From Centroscyllium fabricii (lineage: Eukaryota): a stretch of 64,000 bases of DNA. Positions 1-10,932 of the stretch are shown in pieces. The stretch covers positions 2,480,001 to 2,544,000 of the forward strand of contig JBNRSN020000089.1 in assembly GCA_051313645.2 (NCBI GenBank). Direction: 5' to 3'. The stretch's first letter is position 1. Each line of letters opens with the position of its first letter. The notes beneath the pieces were generated by a model. It did no database searches and had not been told where the DNA came from. It worked only from the letters and a program-made list of their open reading frames with translations. The position numbers were made by a program, and so were the translations under genes.

Positions 1-3000
1 TATCCATCTGTGTACAATACATCAGAGAATGTCCATCTGTGAACAGTAAATCAGAAAATATCCATCTGTAAACAATACATCAGACAATGTCCATCTGTGT
101 ACAATACATCAGGCAATATCCATCTGTGTACAATATATCAGACAATATCCATCCGTGTACAGTATATCAGACAATGTCCATCTGTGTACAATATATCAGA
201 CAATATCCATCTGTGTACAATACATCAGACAATGTCCATCTGTGAACAATACATCAGACAATATCCATCTGTGTACAATACATCAGACAATGTCCATTTG
301 TGTACAGTACATCAGACAATTTCCATCTGTTTACCGTACATCAGACAATGTCCTTCTGTGTACAATACATCAGACAATGTCCATCTGTGAACAGTACATC
401 AGACAATAACCATCTGAGAGCAAAACATCAGACAATATCCATCTGTGTACAATACATCAGACAATGTCCATTTGTACAATACATCAGACAATGTCCATCT
501 GTGTGCAATATATCAGACATTATCCATCTGTGTACAATATATCAGACAATGTCCACCTGTGAACAATACATCAGACAATATCCATCTATGAACAATATAT
601 CAGACAATGTCCATCTGTGTACAATACCTCAGACAATATCCATCTGTGTACAATACATCAGACAATATCCATCTCTGTACATTACATCAGACAATGTCCA
701 TCTGTGTACAATACATCAGACAATATCCATCTGTGTACAATACATCAGACAATGTCCATCTGTGAACAATACATCAGACAATGTCCATCTGTGTAGAATA
801 CATCAGACAATGTCCACCTGTGTACAATACATCCGACAATGTCCATCTGTGTACAATACGTCAGACAATGTCCGTCTGTGTAGAATACATGATACAATAT
901 CCATCTCTGAACAATACATCAGACAATGTCCATCTGTGTACAATACATCAGACAATATCCATCTGTGTACAATACATCAGACAATGTCCATCTGTGTACA
1001 ATACGTCAGACAATGTCCATCTGTGAACAATACATCAGACAATATCCATCTGTGAACAATACATCAGACAATATCCATCTGTGTACAATACACCAGACAA
1101 TGGCCATCTGTACAATACATCAGACAATGTCCATCTGTGTACAATACGTCAGACAATGTCCATCTGTGAACAATACATCAGACAATATCCATCTGTGAAC
1201 AATACATCATACATTATCCATCTGTATACAATACATCAGACAATGCCCATCTGTGAACAATACATCAGACAATATCCATCTATGAACAATACATCAGACA
1301 ATGTCCATCTGTGTACAATACATCAGACATTGTTCATCTGTAGAATACATCGGACAATGTCCATCTGTGTACAATATATCAGACATTATCCATCTGTGTA
1401 CAATACATCAGACAATGTCCATCTGTGAACAATAAATCAGAAAATATCCATCTGTAAACAATACATCAGACAATGTCCATCTGTGTACAATACATCCGAC
1501 AATATCCATCTGTGTACAATATATCAGAAAATATCCATCTGTGTACAGTATATCAGACATTGTCCATCTGTGTACAATACATCAGACAATATCCATCTGT
1601 GATCAATACATCAGACAATGTCCATCTGTGAACAATTCATCAGACAATATCCATCTGTGTACAATGCATCAGACAATGTCCATTTGTGTACAGTACATCA
1701 GACAATATCCATCTGTTTACAGTACATCAGACAATGTCCTTCTGTGTACAATACATCAGACAATGTCCATCTGTGAACAATACATCAGACAATATCCATC
1801 TGTGAGCAATAAATCAGACAATATCCATCTGTGTACAATACATCAGACAATGTCCATCTGTACAATACATCAGACAATGTCCATCTGTGTGCAATATATC
1901 AGACATTATCCATCTGTGTACAATACATCAGACAATGTCCACCTGTGAACAATACATCAGACAATATCTATCTATGAACAATATATCAGACAATGTCCAT
2001 CTGTGTACAATACATCAGACAATATCCATCTGTGTACAATACATCAGACAATATCCTTCTGTGTACAGTACATCAGACAATGTCCATCTGTGTACAATAC
2101 ATCAGACAATATCCATCTGTGTACAATACATCAGACAATGTCCATCTGTGAACAATACATCAGACAATATCCTTCTGTGAACAATACATCAGGCAATATC
2201 CATCTGTGTACAATATATCAGACAATGGCCATCTGTACAATACATCAGACAATGTCCATCTGTGTACAATACATCAGACATTATACATCTGTATACAATA
2301 CATCAGACAATGTCCATCTGTGAACAATACATCAGACAATATCCATCTATGAACAATACATCAGACAACATCCATCTGTGTACAGTACTTCAGACAATGT
2401 CCATCTGTGTACAATACATCAGACAACATTCTTCTGTGTACAGTACTTAGACAATGTCCATCTGTGTACAATACATCAGACAATATCCATCTGTGTACAA
2501 TATATCAGACAATGTCCATCTGTGAACAATACATCAGACAATGTCCATCTGTGTAAAATACCTGAGACAATGTCCATCTGTGCACATTACATCAGACAAT
2601 GTCCATCTGTGTATAGTACGTCAGACAATGTCCTTATTTTAACAGTACATCAGACTATGTCCATCTGTGTACAATAAATCAGACACTGTCCATCTGTGTA
2701 CAATACATCAGAAAATGTCCACCTGTGAACAATACATAAGAAAATATCCATCTGTGTACAGTACATCAGATTATGTCCATCTGTGTACAATACATCAGAA
2801 AATGTCCATCTGTGAACAATACATAAGACATTATCCATCTGTGTACAATACATCAGACATTATCCATCTGTGTACAATACATCAGAAAATGTCCATCTGT
2901 GAACAATACATAAGACATTATCCATCAGTGTACAATACATCAGATATTATCTACCTGTGAACAATACATCAGACAATGTCCATCTGTGTACAATACATCA

Positions 3001-5844
3001 GACAAATGTCCATCTGTGTACAATACATCAGACAATATCCATCTGTGTAAAATACATCAGACAATGTCCATCTTTGTCGAAAACATCAGACAATATCCAT
3101 CTGTGAACAATACATCAGAAAATGTGCAACTGTGCACAATACATAAGACATTATCAATCTGTGTACAATACATCAGACATTATCCATCAGTGTACAATAC
3201 ATCAGACAATATCCATCTGTGAATAATACATCAGAAAATGTCCATCTGTGTACAATACATCAGACATTATCCATCTGTGAACAATACATCAGAAAATAAC
3301 CATCTGTGTACAATACATCAGACAATATCCATCTGTGTACAATACATCAGTAAATGTCCATCTGTGTATAATACATCAGACAATATCCATCTGTGTACAA
3401 TACATCAGACATTATCCATCTGTGAGCAATACATCAGACATTATCCATTTGTGTACAATACATCAGACATGGTCCATCTGTGAACAATACATCAATCATT
3501 ATCCATCTGTGTACAATCCATCAGACAACATCCATCTGTGTACAATACATCAGAGAATGTCCATCTGTGTACAGTACATCAGACAATATCTATCTGTGAA
3601 CAATATATCAGACAATGTCCATCTGTGTACAATACATCAGACAATATCCATCTGTGTACATTACATCAGACAATGTCAATCTGTGAACAATACATCAGAC
3701 AATGTCCATCTGTGTACAATACATCAGACAATGTCCATCTGTGTACAATACATCAGACAATATGCATCTGTGTACAATATATCGGACAATGTCCATCTGT
3801 GTACAATACATCAGACAATTTCCATCTGTGAACAATACAACAGACAATTTCCATCTGTGTACAATACATCAGACAATGTCCATCTGTGCACAATACATCA
3901 GACAATGTCCATCTGTGAACAATGCATCAGACAATGTACATCTATGTACAATACATCAGACATTGCCCATCTGTGTACAATATATCAGACATTATCCATC
4001 TGTGTACAATACATCAGAAAATGTCCATCTGTGTACAATGCATCAGACAATGTCCATCTGTGAACAATACATCAGACAATACCCATCGTGTAGAAAACAT
4101 CAGACATTGTCAATCTGTGTACAATACATCAGACAATATCCATCTGTGTACAATACATCAGACATTGTCCGTCTGTGTACAATACATCAGACAATGTCCA
4201 TCTGTGAACAATACATCAGACAATGTCCATCTGTGTACAATACATCAGACAATGTCCATCTGTGAACAATACATCAGAAAATATCCATCTGTGTACAATA
4301 CATCAGACAATGCCCATCTGTGAACAATACCTAAGACAATGTCCATCTGTGAACAATACATCAGATTTTGTCCATCTGTGTACAATACATCAGACATTGT
4401 CCATCTGTGTACAATAAATGAGACATTGTCCATCTGTGTACAATACATCAGAAAATATCCATCTGTGTACAATACATCCGACAATGTCCATCTATGAACA
4501 ATACATCAGACAATGTCCATCTTTGAACAATACATCAGACAATGTCCATCTGTGTACAATACATCAGACAATGTCCATCTGTGTACAATACATCAGACAT
4601 TATGCATCTGTGTACAATACATCAGACAATGTCCATCTGTGTACAATACATCAGACAATGTCCATCTGTGCACAATACATGAGACAATATCCATCTGTGA
4701 ACAATAAATCAGACAATGTCCATCTGTGTACAATACATCAGAAAATGTCCATCTGTGAACAATCCATTAGACAATATCCATCTTTGTACAGTACATCAGA
4801 GAAAGTCCATCTGTGTACAATACATCAGACAATGTCCATCTGTGAACAAAACATCAGACAATATCCATCTCTGAACAATACATCAGAGGATGTCCATCTG
4901 TGTACAATACACCAGACAATATCCATCTGTGTACAATATATCAGACATTATCCATCTTTATACAATACATCAGACATTATCCATCTGTGTACAATACATC
5001 AGACAATATCCATCTGTGAACAATACATCAGACAATGTCCATCTGTGTACAATACATCAGACAATGTCCAACTGTGTACAAAACTTAAGACAATGCCCAT
5101 CTAGAGTGCAATACATCAGACCATGTCCATTTGTGTACAATACGTCAGACAATGCCCATCTGTGAACAATACATCAGACAATATCCATCTGTGAACAATA
5201 CATCAGACAATATCCATCTGTGTACAATACATCAGATATTGTCCATCTGTACAATACATCGAACAATGTCCATCTGTGTACAATACATCAGACATTATCC
5301 ATCTGTGTACAATAGATCAGACAATGTCCATCTGTGAACAATAAATCAGACAATATCCATCTGTAAACAATACATCAGACAATGTCCATCTGTGTACAAT
5401 ACAACAGACAATATCCATCTGTGTACAATATATTAGACAATATCCATCTGTGTACAGTATATCAGACAATGTCCATCTGTGTACAAAACATCAGACAATA
5501 TCCGTCTGTGTACAATACATCAGACAATGGCCATCTGTGAACAATTCATCAGACAATATCCATCTGTGTACAATATATCAGACAATGTCCATTTGTGTAC
5601 AGTACATCAGAAAATGTCCATCTGTTTACAGTACATCAGACAATGTCCTTCTGTGTACAATACATCAGACAATGTCCATCTGTGAACAATACATCAGACA
5701 ATATCCATCTGTGAGCAATACATCAGACAATATCCATCTGTGTACAATACATCAGACAATGTCCATCTGTACAATACATCAGACAATGTCCATCTTTGTG
5801 CAATATATCAGACATTATCCATCTGTGTACAATACATCAGACAA
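1..5844. repeat. 29-bp tandem satellite, left arm (continues off the window edge)
   Basis: Continuous tandem copies of ACAATACATCAGACAATGTCCATCTGTGT with recurrent variants (ATG/ATA, GTAC/GAAC, and 27-, 28- and 30-bp indel monomers). Ends at ...CAGACAA where non-satellite sequence begins. Confidence 0.99.
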
Positions 5845-6706
5845 ACAGCAGCAGAGAGGCCAGCGCGGGCTATTTAAAAAAGCCAGGACAGCGTGGAGGT
5901 CAGCGCGGGCTATTTAAAAGAAAGCCTGAAAGCGCTTGGAAAAGAACAGCAGCAGAGAGGCCAGCGCGGGCTATTTAAAAAAGCCAGAACAGCGTGGAGG
6001 TCAGCGCGGGCTATTTAAAAGAAAGCCTGAAAGCGCTTGGAAAAGAACAGCAGCAGAGAGGCCAGCGCGGGCTATTTAAAAAAGCCAGGACAGCGTGGAG
6101 GTCAGCGCGGGCTATTTAAAAGAAAGCCTGAAAGCGCTTGGAAAAGAACAGCAGCAGAGAGGCCAGCGCGGGCTATTTAAAAAAGCCAGGACAGCGTGGA
6201 GGTCAGCGCGGGCTATTTAAAAGAAAGCCTGAAAGCGCTTGGAAAAGAACAGCAGCAGAGAGGCCAGCGCGGGCTATTTAAAAAAGCCAGAACAGCGTGG
6301 AGGTCAGCGCGGGCTATTTAAAAGAAAGCCTGAAAGCGCTTGGAAAAGAACAGCAGCAGAGAGGCCAGCGCGGGCTATTTAAAAAAGCCAGAACAGCGTG
6401 GAGGTCAGCGCGGGCTATTTAAAAGAAAGCCTGAAAGCGCTTGGAAAAGAACAGCAGCAGAGAGGCCAGCGCGGGCTATTTAAAAAAGCCAGAACAGCGT
6501 GGAGGTCAGCGCGGGCTATTTAAAAGAAAGCCTGAAAGCGCTTGGAAAAGAACAGCAGCAGAGAGGCCAGCGCGGGCTATTTAAAAAAGCCAGAACAGCG
6601 TGGAGGTCAGCGCGGGCTATTTAAAAGAAAGCCTGAAAGCGCTTGGAAAAGAACAGCAGCAGAGAGGCCAGCGCGGGCTATTTAAAAAAGCCAGAACAGC
6701 GTGGAG
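5844..6706 (+). repeat. 101-bp tandem monomers (8 full plus a 55-bp partial) forming the 5' end of the LINE
   Basis: Units start at 5844, 5945, 6046, 6147, 6248, 6349, 6450, 6551 and 6652. They are identical except for one G/A site (GCCAGGACAG vs GCCAGAACAG; order G,A,G,G,A,A,A,A,A). Each unit is itself two related subunits of 40 and 61 bp. Confidence 0.97.
5861..6688 (+). promoter_or_regulatory. Putative multimeric Pol II promoter: 17 copies of CAGCGCGGGC-TATTTAAAA
   Basis: A GC-rich element directly abuts a TATA-like TATTTAAAA twice per 101-bp unit (first at 5871 and 5911). There are 6 intact CpG per unit. The position at the 5' end of a LINE fits a promoter, but function is inferred and untested. 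Confidence 0.55.
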
Positions 6707-6852
6707 TCGTGGAGCAGCCCTGTGGGCAAGCAGAACTCTGGACTGGGGACACTTAAGGGGGGATTGAAACAGGAAGGGGAGGGGACGGGTAACAGGAAGG
6801 GGAGGGGCCTTTATACTGGTATTGGTATATAGGGAAAGCAGAGGCTAAACCC

Positions 6853-6875
6853 GAGTCACTACATGGTAGTGACTC
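6853..6875 (+). other. Perfect 10-bp hairpin in the unique 5' UTR
   Basis: GAGTCACTAC-ATG-GTAGTGACTC; the two arms are exact reverse complements. Confidence 0.8.
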
Positions 6876-6947
6876 CCACCCTTCCTCCTCCTCTAACCTT
6901 TAGGGGTGAACTTTAGAAGTTTAAGACAGACTAAGGTAGGACTTTAA

Positions 6948-7967
6948 ATGCAGTATTTCATGGGAACTGTGAGGGGATGGATGAGAAAAATGGGAAGATG
7001 CTCCTCCTGCAAAATGTTCCAAGGGGGGAGGGGGAAGGGGAGCCAGGCTGGAAGAATTTGTAAAAAATGCAACCAGCTACAGCGCCTTATAGTAAGAGTA
7101 AGGGGGCTGGAACAGGACCTGAAGAAACTCAAGGTCCAGAGGAAGGCAGAGGAGAAACAGGTCCAGGATGGGGAAAGGGGAAGGAACCTGGAGGAACCTA
7201 AAAACATTAAAGAGGCAGAGGGAGGCACAAAGCAACCAGGGGAGACGGTACATACACCCATGCAGAAGGGCAGGCAGGAGTCGGAGAGAAGGGAGGGGGA
7301 GGATGGGGCGAGGCCCCCAGGGGACAGTCACCCCGGCAACAGGGATACAGTCCTGAACCATGAAGTGGGGGAAGATCGAGCAGGGGGAGACCGAGAGGAG
7401 GAGAACTCGGTGACCAGACCAGAAGAGGTGGTACAAAAAGAAGGAGGGGGAAGGCTGAGAGCAATAGTGATGGGCGATTCAATGGTGAGTAGGATGGAAA
7501 CGAGGTTTTGTGGGAGCAAAAGGGACTCGAGGATGGTTTGTTGCTTCCCAGGGGCTAAGGTCAAAGACATCTCGGACCGTGTTGACGGCACTCTAAACGG
7601 GGAGAGCAAACAGGTACAGGTCGTGGTACACATAGGTACGAACGACATAGGGAGGAAAAAAGAGGAAGACATTAAGAGGGAATTTAAGGAACTCGGAAGG
7701 AAACTGAGAGGCAAAACAAATCATGCCACAATTTCTGGGATCCTACCAGTGCCACGGGAGGGGGGGAGGAAAAATGAAAAAAGAAAGCGAATAAACGCGT
7801 GGCTACAAGATTGGTGCGTAAGGGAGGGCATGAGATTCGTGGACAATTGGGGATCGTTCTGGGGAAAGTGGGATCGGTATGATGTGGACGGCATGCACCT
7901 GAACCGAAGGGGCATCAGCATTCTGGGTGGGAAACTCGCTTCGGCCATAAAGGGGGATTTAAACTAA
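6948..7967 (+). CDS. CR1 ORF1 protein: zinc finger, coiled coil and SGNH/GDSL esterase domain (339 aa)
   Basis: CSSC-X16-CKKC (6999-7070) followed by the heptad-like LQRLIVRVRGLEQDLKKL, a charged low-complexity linker, and SGNH blocks GDS, PGA, HIGTND and DGMH. This architecture is established for vertebrate CR1 ORF1. The true start may be one of the nearby downstream Met codons. Confidence 0.93.
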   Translation: MQYFMGTVRGWMRKMGRCSSCKMFQGGRGKGSQAGRICKKCNQLQRLIVRVRGLEQDLKKLKVQRKAEEKQVQDGERGRNLEEPKNIKEAEGGTKQPGETVHTPMQKGRQESERREGEDGARPPGDSHPGNRDTVLNHEVGEDRAGGDREEENSVTRPEEVVQKEGGGRLRAIVMGDSMVSRMETRFCGSKRDSRMVCCFPGAKVKDISDRVDGTLNGESKQVQVVVHIGTNDIGRKKEEDIKREFKELGRKLRGKTNHATISGILPVPREGGRKNEKRKRINAWLQDWCVREGMRFVDNWGSFWGKWDRYDVDGMHLNRRGISILGGKLASAIKGDLN

Positions 7968-7997
7968 TTGGCCAGGGGGATAGGGAAACGGGCAGGG
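7958..7997 (+). other. Candidate -1 ribosomal frameshift signal: T_TTA_AAC slippery heptamer, stop codon, G-quadruplex motif
   Basis: ORF1 ends GAT TTA AAC TAA, so 7958-7964 is X_XXY_YYZ in the correct phase. The ORF2 frame is -1 relative to ORF1 and open from 7883. GGGGG-ATA-GGG-AAAC-GGG-CA-GGG lies at 7975-7997. Confidence 0.65.
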
Positions 7998-8131
7998 AAA
8001 CAGAGGGGAGACCGGGGAACAACGAGAAAAAAGGGGGAGAACCAAGGGCAAAGGAAAGGGAAAGGGGTCTGAAATGCGCCTACTTCAATGCAAGAAGTAT
8101 AAGGAACAAGGCAGGGGAGTTAGGGGCATGG

Positions 8132-10834
8132 ATGGCGGCATGGGACTTCGATGTGGTGGCCATTACAGAGACATGGCTGGAGCAGGGACAGGACTGGATG
8201 ATTGGGGTCCCGGGATACAGAAGCTTCTGGAGGAGCAGGGAGGAAGGAAAGCGCGGGGGGGGAGTAGCACTGCTGGTCAAGGACAACGTGACGGCTACAG
8301 AAAAAAACTTTGAGGGGGACACACAAACGGAGGTAGTATGGGCGGAGCTTAGGAATAGGAAGGGGGCGGTAACGCTAGTGGGAGTCTTTTATAGACCACC
8401 AAATAGCAACAGGGAGGTGGAGGAGGAAATTGCGCGACAAATAAAGGAAAGATGTGAGGGACAGAGGGTAGTTATAATGGGAGATTTCAATTTCCCTAAT
8501 ATAGACTGGAATCTAGGTAGGTCAAGGAGTGCAGAGGGAGAGAGTTTCTTACAATGCGTACAAGAAGGTTTCCTGACACAATACGTGGAGGAACCAACAA
8601 GGGGGGGTGCAACGTTGGACCTGGTTCTGGGAAATGAACCAGGCCAAGTGGTAGAACTGGGGGTAAGGGAGCACTTTGGGGACAGTGACCACAACTCGGT
8701 GACGTTCACAATAGTAATGGAGAAGGATAGGAGCAAGAGGCAGGGCAAGGTATACAGCTGGGGGAGGGGAAATTACGACAGGGTTAGGCACGATTTAGGT
8801 AACACCAATTGGGAACGGGAACTTGAGGGAAGAGGAACGGAAGAAAAGTGGAGAGTGTTCAGGGAGCAAATTATGAAAGCCCTGGACAAGCATGTCCCGA
8901 GTAGGATGGGAAGAAAGGGTAAGATGAGAGAACCATGGATCACGAAAGAGGTAGAACAATTAGTAAAAAGGAAGAAGGAAGCATATGATAAAATGAGAAA
9001 ACAGAGTACAGAGGGGGCGGGAAGGGAGTACAAAGAAGCAAGGAAAAAACTGAAGAATGGGCTAAGGAAGGCAAAGGGTGGGCATGAGAAGGCATTAGCG
9101 GGAAGGATAAAGGAGAACCCCAAGGCTTTCTATGCTTACGTAAGAAATAAAAGGATGACTAGGGTAAAAGTAGGGCCGATCAAAGACAGCAACGGAGAAA
9201 TGTGCACGGAGCCAGAGGAAATTGGGGAAGCACTAAATGAATATTTTGCGTCCGTGTTCACAAAGGAGAGGGAACTAAAAGCAGAGGGGGAGCTCAAGAT
9301 ACAAGGGGAAAAGATGGGGGAAGTAAATATTCAGAGGGGGGAGGTATTAGAAATTTTGGAGAAACTAAAGGTAGACAAATCTCCTGGGCCGGACGGGATT
9401 TATCCAAGGATTCTCTGGGAGGCGAGGAAAGAAATCGCAGAGCCACTGACCTCTATCTTTAGATCATCGCTATCCTCGGGGATAGTCCCTAAGGACTGGA
9501 GAGAGGCGAATGTGGCTCCCATATTTAAAAAGGGGAGCAGGGACGCGCCAGGGAACTACAGACCAGTCAGTCTCACCTCAGTGGTCGGAAAGGTGATGGA
9601 AAAGGTCCTGAAGGACAGGATCTACGACCATCTAGACAGGGGCGAATTAATCAGAAGCAGTCAGCACGGATTCGTTAAGGGCAAATCGTGCCTGACCAAC
9701 CTGATAGAATTCTTTGAAGAGGTGACCAGGAGTGTGGATGAGGGAAAGGCGGTTGATGTCATATATATGGACTTCAGCAAGGCGTTCGACAAGGTCCCGC
9801 ACGATCGACTTATGAGGAAAGTAAGGAGATGCGGGGTAAGCAACAAAGTGGTGGGATGGATTGAGAACTGGCTGGCTCAAAGGAAGCAGAGGGTAGTGGT
9901 AGATGGCCAATACTCGGGCTGGAGACCGGTCACCAGTGGGGTACCACAGGGGTCGGTGTTGGGGCCACTACTGTTTGTAATCTTCATCAATGACTTGGAG
10001 GAGGGGACTGAGGGGTGGGTCAGCAAGTTTGCGGACGACACAAAGATAGGGGGAGAAGTGGATGAGGAGGAAGGAGGTAGAAAGATTCAGAGGGATATAG
10101 ACAGGATGCAGAGCTGGGCTGAAGAATGGCAGATGGAGTTCAACACGGGGAAATGCGAGGTGATGCACTTCGGCAGGGCAAATAGGAAGAGGGAATATAG
10201 GGTCAATGGCAGAATCCTGAGTGAAGCAGAGGAGCAAAGGGATCTGGGAGTATATGTACACAGATCACTGAAGGCTGCCACCCAGGTGGACAAAGCAGTG
10301 AAAAAGGCCTATGGGGTATTGGCCTTCATCAACAGGGGAATAGAGTTTAGGAACCGGGAGGTCATGCTACAGCTGTACAGGTCACTGGTGAGACCACACT
10401 TGGAGTACTGTGTGCAGTTCTGGGCACCGTACTACAGGAGAGATGTGGAGGCGCTGGAGAGGGTGCAGAGGAGATTCACCAGGATGCTGCCGGGAATGGG
10501 AGGAAGGTCATACGAGGAGAGGTTGAGGGAGCTGGGACTCTTCTCCCTGGAACGGAGAAGGAAGAGAGGGGACTTGATAGAGATGTTTAAAATGATGAAG
10601 GGGATCGATAGAGTAAACGTGCAAAGACTGTTTCCCCGGGCGGGAAGAACGTCAACAAGAGGACACGAGCACAAGATTCAAGGAGGAAGATTCAGAAGGG
10701 ATGGCAGGGGCAGGTTCTTTACACAGAGAGTGGTAGGGGAATGGAATAGGCTACCATCTGAAATAGTGGATGCGGACAGTCTGGGTGCTTTTAAAAGGAT
10801 GATAGACAGGTACATGGAGGGGAAGGAACAGTAG
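8132..10834 (+). CDS. CR1 ORF2: apurinic-like endonuclease and reverse transcriptase (900 aa from first ATG; true coding region extends upstream to about 7964)
   Basis: APE motifs ITETW, YRPP, GDFN, LDLVL, SDH. RT motifs KSPGPDGI, NYRPVSLTS, QHGF, DFSKAFD, GVPQGSVLGPLLF, FADD. No stops or frameshifts. The same frame is open upstream and encodes LKCAYFNARSIRNK (8069-8110), the first APE motif. Confidence 0.97.
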   Translation: MAAWDFDVVAITETWLEQGQDWMIGVPGYRSFWRSREEGKRGGGVALLVKDNVTATEKNFEGDTQTEVVWAELRNRKGAVTLVGVFYRPPNSNREVEEEIARQIKERCEGQRVVIMGDFNFPNIDWNLGRSRSAEGESFLQCVQEGFLTQYVEEPTRGGATLDLVLGNEPGQVVELGVREHFGDSDHNSVTFTIVMEKDRSKRQGKVYSWGRGNYDRVRHDLGNTNWERELEGRGTEEKWRVFREQIMKALDKHVPSRMGRKGKMREPWITKEVEQLVKRKKEAYDKMRKQSTEGAGREYKEARKKLKNGLRKAKGGHEKALAGRIKENPKAFYAYVRNKRMTRVKVGPIKDSNGEMCTEPEEIGEALNEYFASVFTKERELKAEGELKIQGEKMGEVNIQRGEVLEILEKLKVDKSPGPDGIYPRILWEARKEIAEPLTSIFRSSLSSGIVPKDWREANVAPIFKKGSRDAPGNYRPVSLTSVVGKVMEKVLKDRIYDHLDRGELIRSSQHGFVKGKSCLTNLIEFFEEVTRSVDEGKAVDVIYMDFSKAFDKVPHDRLMRKVRRCGVSNKVVGWIENWLAQRKQRVVVDGQYSGWRPVTSGVPQGSVLGPLLFVIFINDLEEGTEGWVSKFADDTKIGGEVDEEEGGRKIQRDIDRMQSWAEEWQMEFNTGKCEVMHFGRANRKREYRVNGRILSEAEEQRDLGVYVHRSLKAATQVDKAVKKAYGVLAFINRGIEFRNREVMLQLYRSLVRPHLEYCVQFWAPYYRRDVEALERVQRRFTRMLPGMGGRSYEERLRELGLFSLERRRKRGDLIEMFKMMKGIDRVNVQRLFPRAGRTSTRGHEHKIQGGRFRRDGRGRFFTQRVVGEWNRLPSEIVDADSLGAFKRMIDRYMEGKEQ

Positions 10835-10868
10835 GGGGGAAGGGAAAAATCAGAGATGGACTAAGGGC

Positions 10869-10905
10869 GGCACTACATTGAGGGCCCAAGGGCCTGTACA
10901 GTGCT
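10869..10905 (+). other. CR1-type 3' UTR stem-loop (putative RT recognition signal)
   Basis: GCAC/GTGC, TACA/TGTA and GGCC-CAAG-GGCC pairings can form one extended hairpin. A 3' stem-loop before a microsatellite tail is established for CR1/L2 'stringent' LINEs. Confidence 0.7.
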
Positions 10906-10906
10906 G

Positions 10907-10932
10907 TATGTTCTATGTTCTATGTTCTATGT
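10907..10932 (+). repeat. LINE 3' microsatellite tail (TATGTTC)x3 plus TATGT
   Basis: tatgttc tatgttc tatgttc tatgt lies immediately before the satellite resumes. Confidence 0.93.

What the first reader, a model, noticed from the sequence alone, without database searches (positions are those of the whole stretch)
5844..6706. LINE with a tandem array of TATA-bearing 5' monomers: a possible self-renewing upstream promoter
Seen: 8.5 near-identical 101-bp units, each with two CAGCGCGGGC-TATTTAAAA boxes. The element's first base (AACAGC, 5844) falls at the monomer position 34 nt downstream of the first T of the second TATTTAAAAG box (5911 vs 5945), or 32 nt from TTTAAAAG. The unique UTR starts 28 nt after the last box (6679 vs 6707). 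Established: TATA boxes act about 30 nt upstream of the start site; LINEs normally use internal TATA-less promoters because an upstream promoter is lost on retrotransposition; mouse L1 uses tandem 5' monomers. Inference: each monomer drives initiation in the next one, so a daughter copy sacrifices the outermost TATA but keeps the rest, with array re-expansion restoring the number. I do not know of this design being described for CR1 elements.
Basis: partly seen in the sequence, partly recalled or inferred. Interest (0 to 1): 0.85.

Follow-up and report, generated by a model that had tools for sequence, protein, structure and literature searches.

The report
LINE with renewable tandem promoter array
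A young CR1-type jumping gene carries a row of near-identical 101-base units at its front end, and copies that begin 31 bases after a TATA-like box in the unit almost always carry one extra G, which likely marks a real transcription start, so each unit likely works as a promoter and a shortened copy would still keep one.

Summary
Observation confirmed: 8.5 near-identical 101-bp units head an intact CR1-type LINE (5844-10932) inserted in a 29-bp satellite. The array is a family trait: 298 copies share the array/UTR junction; 99 sampled arrays run 0.4 to >54 units (median 12). Genome-wide 5' junctions give real support for a promoter: at the C|A 31 nt after the first TATTTAAAA (window 5902), 14 of 15 distinct junctions carry a non-matching G (background 12 of 71), the known mark of a copied mRNA cap, and G-bearing copies have longer arrays. 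But most ends look like ordinary truncations; the peak 27-36 nt after the second box (22 of 95) mostly lacks the G; a TATA-less C|A (5862) also starts G-bearing copies (5 of 8); the window copy itself has no G; and no copies pile up at the unique UTR start. Arrays are reshuffled and block-duplicated even between copies with identical bodies, so re-expansion is real; its mechanism is open. It works like the mouse L1 monomer promoter, convergently, with longer arrays and a likely TATA-like plus initiator core. New variant of a known kind; TATA dependence is untested.

The parts
5844..6706 (+). 5' monomer array, 8.54 x 101 bp; each unit has two CAGCGCGGGC-TATTTAAAA boxes
   Evidence: family-wide
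5871..5879 (+). TATA-like box 1 (repeats every 101 bp to 6679); one mismatch to TATAWAWR
   Evidence: consensus as quoted in abstract of PMC2396422
5901..5902 (+). C|A at the start of box 2, 31 nt after the T of TATA-like box 1: main G-marked start position of genomic copies (inferred transcription start; repeats every 101 bp)
   Evidence: 14 of 15 distinct junctions carry a G
5861..5862 (+). C|A at the start of box 1, no TATA 31 nt upstream: secondary G-marked start position
   Evidence: 5 of 8 junctions carry a G
5911..5920 (+). TATA-like box 2
5938..5947 (+). Zone 27-36 nt after box 2: densest cluster of 5' ends, mostly without visible G (start zone or truncation hotspot, unresolved)
   Evidence: 22 of 95, scan p=0.005; 34 vs 22 in further copies; G in 3 of 14
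6707..6947 (+). Unique 5' UTR (tether); the last unit breaks off 3 nt before the C|A start; holds a 10-bp-stem hairpin at 6853-6875
   Evidence: no Rfam match
6948..7967 (+). ORF1, 339 aa, SGNH/GDSL esterase domain
7883..10834 (+). ORF2 frame, APE endonuclease + reverse transcriptase; first Met only at 8132, inside the endonuclease
10835..10932 (+). 3' UTR and (TATGTTC)n tail; no clear target-site duplication beyond 0-3 nt

Best explanation
The array is the 5' end of a young, intact CR1-type LINE family, and it likely works as a chain of RNA polymerase II core promoters, one set per 101-bp unit, in which a TATA-like box likely helps place a capped start at the C|A 31 nt downstream. Steps: (1) shown: hundreds of copies carry 0.4 to >54 units; (2) shown: copies that begin at that C|A nearly always carry one extra G and have long arrays; (3) inferred: the G is the reverse-transcribed cap, so these are full-length RNAs started inside the array; weaker starts occur at other C|A sites, including one with no TATA upstream; (4) inferred: a transcript loses everything upstream of its start, but all inner units survive, so both full-length daughters and the far more numerous daughters truncated inside the array inherit complete promoters; (5) shown: unit order and number are scrambled and block-duplicated between copies whose bodies are identical; inferred: this re-expansion (in-register template slipping during reverse transcription, or unequal crossing-over) offsets the loss.
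For: Extra G at window-5902-type junctions in 14 of 15 distinct loci; leaving out the discovery copies, 10 of 11 vs 12 of 71 at non-pyrimidine/purine positions, p=3e-6. Position is T+31 and a C|A. It is the most frequent 5' end among unit positions 41-66 (9 of 64 junctions, read by eye; 6 of 70 rows dropped as internal rearrangements). G-bearing C|A copies have >=10 units in 19 of 24 vs 2 of 11 without G, p=0.002. G starts at the TATA-paired C|A outnumber those at the identical TATA-less C|A 13 to 5 (12 to 4 in matched subfamilies), one-sided p=0.04-0.05. Where the empty target is known, the G is not target-derived (L152, L308). Ends enriched after box 2 in subfamilies whose sequence there differs. 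Untemplated 5' G is attributed to cap copying in L1/SVA (passages of PMC3287187; PMC2912911). Bodies differ by a median 6 of 4199 bases yet unit strings differ even at 0 differences, with private variants repeated at fixed periods; 85 of 98 copies have both ORFs open.
Against: Only 3 of 95 unselected copies begin at the TATA1+31 site, and the window 25-35 nt after box 1 is not enriched as a whole (8 of 95, 10.3 expected). The larger peak after box 2 shows G in only 3 of 14 scorable copies, less than the rest of the unit (15 of 46), and its arrays are not longer (median 7 vs 12 units); it begins at an A-run where microhomology could pile up ends. The TATA-less C|A also gives G starts (5 of 8) and other C|A sites 7 of 14, so an initiator alone may do. 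One known-target junction has an untemplated G before a T (L074), so G addition has a background. A subfamily with both boxes altered (TAGTTAAAA, TTTTTAAAA; 5 of 143 loci typed) has spread, and one G start lies in an array where 6 of 14 box-1 copies are TAGTT (L170). No RNA or reporter data.
Confidence: 0.68

Rival explanations
1. The units are promoters, but TATA-independent: each CAGCGCGGGC box begins with an initiator-like C|A and carries its own downstream elements, so the promoter is internal as in other LINEs and the 31-nt spacing is a by-product of the 40-nt sub-repeat.
For: Both boxes start G-bearing copies; other C|A sites show G in 7 of 14; TATA-altered subfamilies exist; box 2 has no sharp G-marked start at +31.
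Against: The TATA-paired C|A is used about three times as often as the sequence-identical unpaired one and has the higher G share; ends are enriched 25-35 nt after box 2, where no box begins; 3 copies of one subfamily begin with a G that could hide cap+A at box 2 +31 (L278, L288, L316).
Confidence: 0.22
2. The array is an unstable minisatellite or enhancer carried in the 5' UTR; RNA comes from flanking host promoters or read-through, and all ends are truncations, with G added by terminal transferase or chosen by microhomology.
For: Termination rate in the body (14,421 3' ends vs 969 5' UTRs, about 1 per 1450 nt) matches mean array length (13 units, about 1320 nt); ends also cluster in the AT-rich box 1.
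Against: Does not explain G at one position in 14 of 15 cases, its tie to C|A, or the longer arrays of G copies; no upstream host sequence is shared between copies.
Confidence: 0.08
3. The array is an assembly artefact or a satellite unrelated to the LINE.
For: The window copy lies in a satellite; three arrays exceed 54 units.
Against: 298 exact array/UTR junctions on both strands of many contigs with unique flanks; monomer and UTR also present in contigs of runs X1, X3 (which may include the source sample) and a monomer piece in X5.
Confidence: 0.02

Closest known systems
Mouse L1Md A, Tf and Gf monomer promoters (PMC6454616, passages and Discussion read; PMC7778262, passages read)
   Same: Tandem monomers plus a unique tether before ORF1; variable copy number; 5' termini cluster at a monomer position read as the start; monomer duplication offsets truncation, by an unsettled mechanism (second-strand priming or unequal crossing-over).
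   Different: Different clade (CR1 with esterase ORF1, microsatellite tail). Mouse monomers are about 200 bp, average 2.7-3.1 copies, 99% at most 10, and L1 regulatory regions are described as lacking TATA boxes, with YY1/AP-1 sites near the start; here 101 bp, median 12 copies, two TATA-like boxes per unit, a base-exact G-marked start at TATA+31, and only a minority of ends at the start.
Drosophila HeT-A/TAHRE 3' promoter (PMC2615633, passages read)
   Same: A promoter in the upstream repeat drives the downstream one and is partly left behind.
   Different: There the repeat is the whole element in a telomeric array; here it is a 101-bp unit inside one dispersed element.
5' subunit arrays in vertebrate CR1-group elements (PMC13343379, section 15 and passages read)
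   Same: Repeating subunits of 100-500 bp near the 5' UTR in the CR1 group.
   Different: Reported for some ORF1-less elements, 1-5 subunits, with no function proposed ('promoter' has 0 occurrences in the text); here an ORF1-bearing canonical CR1 with up to about 67 units and start-site evidence.

Membership tests
Canonical CR1 LINE | ORF2 with APE endonuclease and reverse transcriptase | tested here: met
   PF03372/PF14529 and PF00078
Canonical CR1 LINE | Esterase-type ORF1 (PMC13343379; shared with some L2) | tested here: met
   PF13472, E=2.4e-12
Canonical CR1 LINE | Microsatellite 3' tail, no poly(A), short or no target duplication (features recalled) | tested here: met
   (TATGTTC)n tail; known empty sites show 0-4 nt overlap
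Canonical CR1 LINE | Pervasive 5' truncation (recalled) | tested here: met
   969 5' UTR vs 14,421 3' matches
Canonical CR1 LINE | RT groups with CR1 rather than L2/Zenon in a tree | tested here: inconclusive
   No tree with labelled references. Closest named hits are shark proteins at 74-77% and bird/turtle RT proteins at about 45-59%; the names do not state a clade
Mouse L1-type monomer promoter (works like) | Tandem monomers in variable number, joined to ORF1 by a tether | tested here: met
   tether 6707-6947
Mouse L1-type monomer promoter (works like) | 5' termini cluster at a monomer position | tested here: inconclusive
   Two non-random features (G-marked site; zone after box 2) on a broad background of truncations
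Mouse L1-type monomer promoter (works like) | Monomers drive a reporter; CAGE peak in the monomer | not testable with these tools
   No RNA holder listed
Mouse L1 (membership) | L1-clade ORF1, poly(A) tail, TATA-less monomer with YY1 site GCCATCTT | tested here: not met
   Esterase ORF1, microsatellite tail, unit sequence has TATA-like boxes and no GCCATCTT (read)
TATA-driven Pol II core promoter | TATAWAWR-like box about 30 nt upstream of a pyrimidine|purine start | tested here: met
   TATTTAAA (one mismatch) at -31 from the G-marked C|A; met for box 1 only
TATA-driven Pol II core promoter | Start depends on the box | tested here: inconclusive
   13 vs 5 G starts with vs without upstream box; natural box mutants too few

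The most novel reading that the evidence does not exclude
A LINE that has solved the internal-promoter problem with an ordinary upstream TATA promoter made disposable: each unit's TATA fires the start 31 nt downstream and is sacrificed, and the element's own reverse transcriptase rebuilds the array at each insertion by slipping back in register and recopying blocks of units, telomerase-like. That would explain why copies with identical bodies have different, often periodic, unit strings while array point mutations are mostly single-copy.
Probability: 0.25. Interest if true: 0.82.

Novelty: new variant of a known kind. Interest (0 to 1): 0.62.

Why it matters
CR1 promoters are barely characterised because almost all copies are 5'-truncated. 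Here a very young family with about a thousand 5'-complete copies records its own start sites in DNA through the extra G, and shows that the monomer-promoter design of mouse L1 arose again in another clade, with a TATA-like core that L1 lacks. How monomer arrays are regenerated is an open question in mouse L1 (PMC6454616); this family, with near-identical bodies, long arrays and a two-state marker in each unit, makes unequal crossing-over versus recopying during reverse transcription directly testable. It also scatters roughly ten thousand candidate core-promoter units through the host genome (969 copies x median 12 units, an estimate).

Tried and rejected
Target-site duplications to fix exact 5' borders: none longer than chance in the 98 copies with a 3' end in view; used repeated targets with known empty sites instead. 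UTR-start pile-up: not found; 96 of the first 100 of 113 rows were a 34-bp UTR duplication of one subfamily. RNA hairpin stalling as cause of the peak after box 2: three units fold no better than shuffles (z=0.53). Cap G left inside arrays by template jumping: none; insertions were homopolymer slips apart from one G in a G/A run. L237/L238 as evidence of post-insertion length change: they are a 10.4-kb segmental duplication that ends inside the array, uninformative. Splicing of host exons into the monomer as source of the G: rejected by reasoning, since no AG or pyrimidine tract precedes the site and the flanks are unrelated. My first by-eye reading of 'G+G' starts at the end of the unit was wrong; they are a subfamily variant, so each copy was re-scored against its own array. 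One search used a mis-written pattern and returned unrelated hits; repeated correctly. Unit positions 67-94 were not tiled genome-wide; they are covered only by the 95-copy sample. No RNA holder listed. No Rfam match in 6550-7000. Natural TATA-mutant test: only 1 junction in the variant subfamilies, no power. Literature: searches found no paper describing a TATA-bearing monomer promoter in a CR1; the library lacks most subscription journals and Repbase/Dfam entries were not searchable. Zingler et al. 2005 was not held. No supplements were read.

Full report
Observation. The window is a 29-bp satellite (3-5844, 10933-64000) interrupted by one LINE. The array 5844-6706 has 8.5 units of 101 bp that differ at one A/G site, with 17 boxes. 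Downstream lie a 241-bp unique UTR, an esterase ORF1 and an endonuclease-RT ORF2 and a (TATGTTC)n tail. The RT's closest named relatives are shark proteins at 74-77%, so the host is probably a cartilaginous fish (inference). Unit positions below count window 5844 as 0: TATA-like boxes start at 27 and 67.

Family survey. An exact 30-mer across the array/UTR junction has 298 matches in the 7.2-Gb genome. I fetched the first 100 listed, 10 kb each, and aligned each to the circular unit. Arrays span 0.4 to >54 units, median 12, mean 13 (n=99, one duplicate dropped); the three that ran off end at about 54, 56 and 67 units. Bodies differ by a median 6 of 4199 bases and 85 of 98 have both ORFs open. 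A 5' UTR 30-mer has 969 matches and a 3' 30-mer 14,421: about one termination per 1450 nt, close to the mean array length, so most ends inside the array are best read as truncations (the body rate need not be uniform). Sister subfamilies have their own homogenised units of 100-104 bp, including one with both boxes altered.

Where copies begin. In 95 scorable unselected copies (100 less 3 run-offs, 1 duplicate, 1 inversion) ends occur at 45 of 101 positions; 22 fall in positions 94-2 (scan p=0.005); 25-35 nt after box 2 holds 20 (10.3 expected, p=0.003), after box 1 only 8. The box-2 excess repeats in further copies found by a junction pattern (first 100 of 147 rows; fetched): 34 ends at 26-36 nt vs 22 at 37-50 nt, p=0.009. 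But only 3 of 14 scorable ends there have an extra G, and their arrays are not longer; the peak starts at an A-run in the window's subfamily, and in others a templated G could hide a cap G. It stays unresolved.

The extra G. All three unselected copies starting at position 58, the A of a C|A 31 nt after box 1, had a G in place of the C. A genome-wide pattern that allowed A, G or T there returned 13 true junctions, 12 with G; variant subfamilies added 1 of 1; in all 14 of 15 distinct loci. Background at non-pyrimidine/purine positions is 12 of 71; 10 of 11 non-discovery copies vs that gives p=3e-6. Among junctions at positions 41-66, read by eye (64 of 70 rows kept), position 58 was the most frequent (9, all G, a subset of the 13) vs 5 G of 22 scorable elsewhere. 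The control, the same box sequence at position 18 with no TATA 31 nt upstream, gave 8 junctions, 5 with G; other C|A sites 7 of 14. G-bearing C|A copies have longer arrays (19 of 24 vs 2 of 11 with at least 10 units, p=0.002). An untemplated 5' G on full-length L1 and SVA insertions is attributed to copying of the 7-methylguanosine cap (passages of PMC3287187; PMC2912911). I infer capped Pol II starts inside the array, strongest at TATA+31, with weaker initiator-only starts.

The window copy has no G and shares AA with the target on both sides: more likely a truncation that lies in the box-2 zone. No junctions pile up at the unique UTR start. The last unit breaks off just before the C|A, which would avoid promoterless daughters (inference).

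Re-expansion. The A/G string along the array differs between almost all copies, including three with identical bodies. Many strings are periodic, and private variants recur at fixed steps (L106 every 4 units, L080 every 6); L238 shows nested 7- and 14-unit blocks. Array substitutions are mostly single-copy (67 single, 10 multi-unit events) at 0.53 per kb, like private body changes at 0.43 per kb, which suggests arrays have been fairly stable since insertion and were reshuffled at or near it; this does not exclude unequal crossing-over, and nested blocks fit several steps.

Comparison. Mouse L1 monomer promoters have the same logic, with clustering of 5' termini and unexplained monomer duplication (PMC6454616: find passages and Discussion); they average about 3 units and L1 regulatory regions are described as TATA-less (PMC7778262 passages; PMC5381506 passages; PMC9022269 one passage). 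HeT-A uses a promoter in the upstream element (PMC2615633 passages). A 2026 survey notes 1-5 subunits near the 5' UTR of some ORF1-less CR1-group elements without function (PMC13343379). My searches found no TATA-bearing monomer promoter in CR1.

Verdict. Real, family-wide, probably a promoter array (about 0.9 with or without TATA dependence); TATA-assisted start about 0.68; new variant of a known kind; interest 0.62.

Noticed in passing
window 7958-7967: ORF1 ends in T TTA AAC TAA, a classic -1 slippery heptamer (motif recalled) in the right frame for ORF2, whose first Met lies inside the endonuclease (8132). Present in 99 of 100 copies and in all 7 held copies of a family only 65% identical, 4 of which stay open in the -1 frame up to the endonuclease. 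Suggests ORF2 is made by -1 frameshifting; no stable downstream structure found.
   Followed up: partly
L193/L262, L249, L239, L251, L256, L263: A second CR1 family (about 65% identical in ORF1) carries degenerate copies of the same monomer at its 5' end; four copies have an unrelated GC-rich 5' sequence joined to one partial monomer. Points to 5' UTR exchange between families.
   Followed up: partly
window 6844-6900: Contigs of runs X1, X3 and X5 join this UTR segment (with its 10-bp hairpin) to other upstream sequences that hold canonical TATAAAAG / TATATAAG boxes (loose ends); the window has TATATAGG at 6827. Related families may use a single canonical TATA here. Not present in held loci.
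   Followed up: partly
L074, L098, L105, L134, L152, L244, L308, L316 flanks: At least 8 insertions hit the same site in another dispersed repeat, at ATAT matching the tail, which suggests target choice by 3' tail microhomology.
   Followed up: partly
L330-L349: One subfamily has a 34-bp tandem duplication at the start of the unique UTR (96 of the first 100 rows), in places a triplication.
   Followed up: no
window 3-5843 and 10933-64000: 29-bp satellite, 85-87% matches, with higher-order repeats of about 2.9 kb seen as recurring open frames.
   Followed up: no
L133/L356 (C667): A copy with about 67 identical units is inserted into ORF2 sequence of the same family.
   Followed up: no
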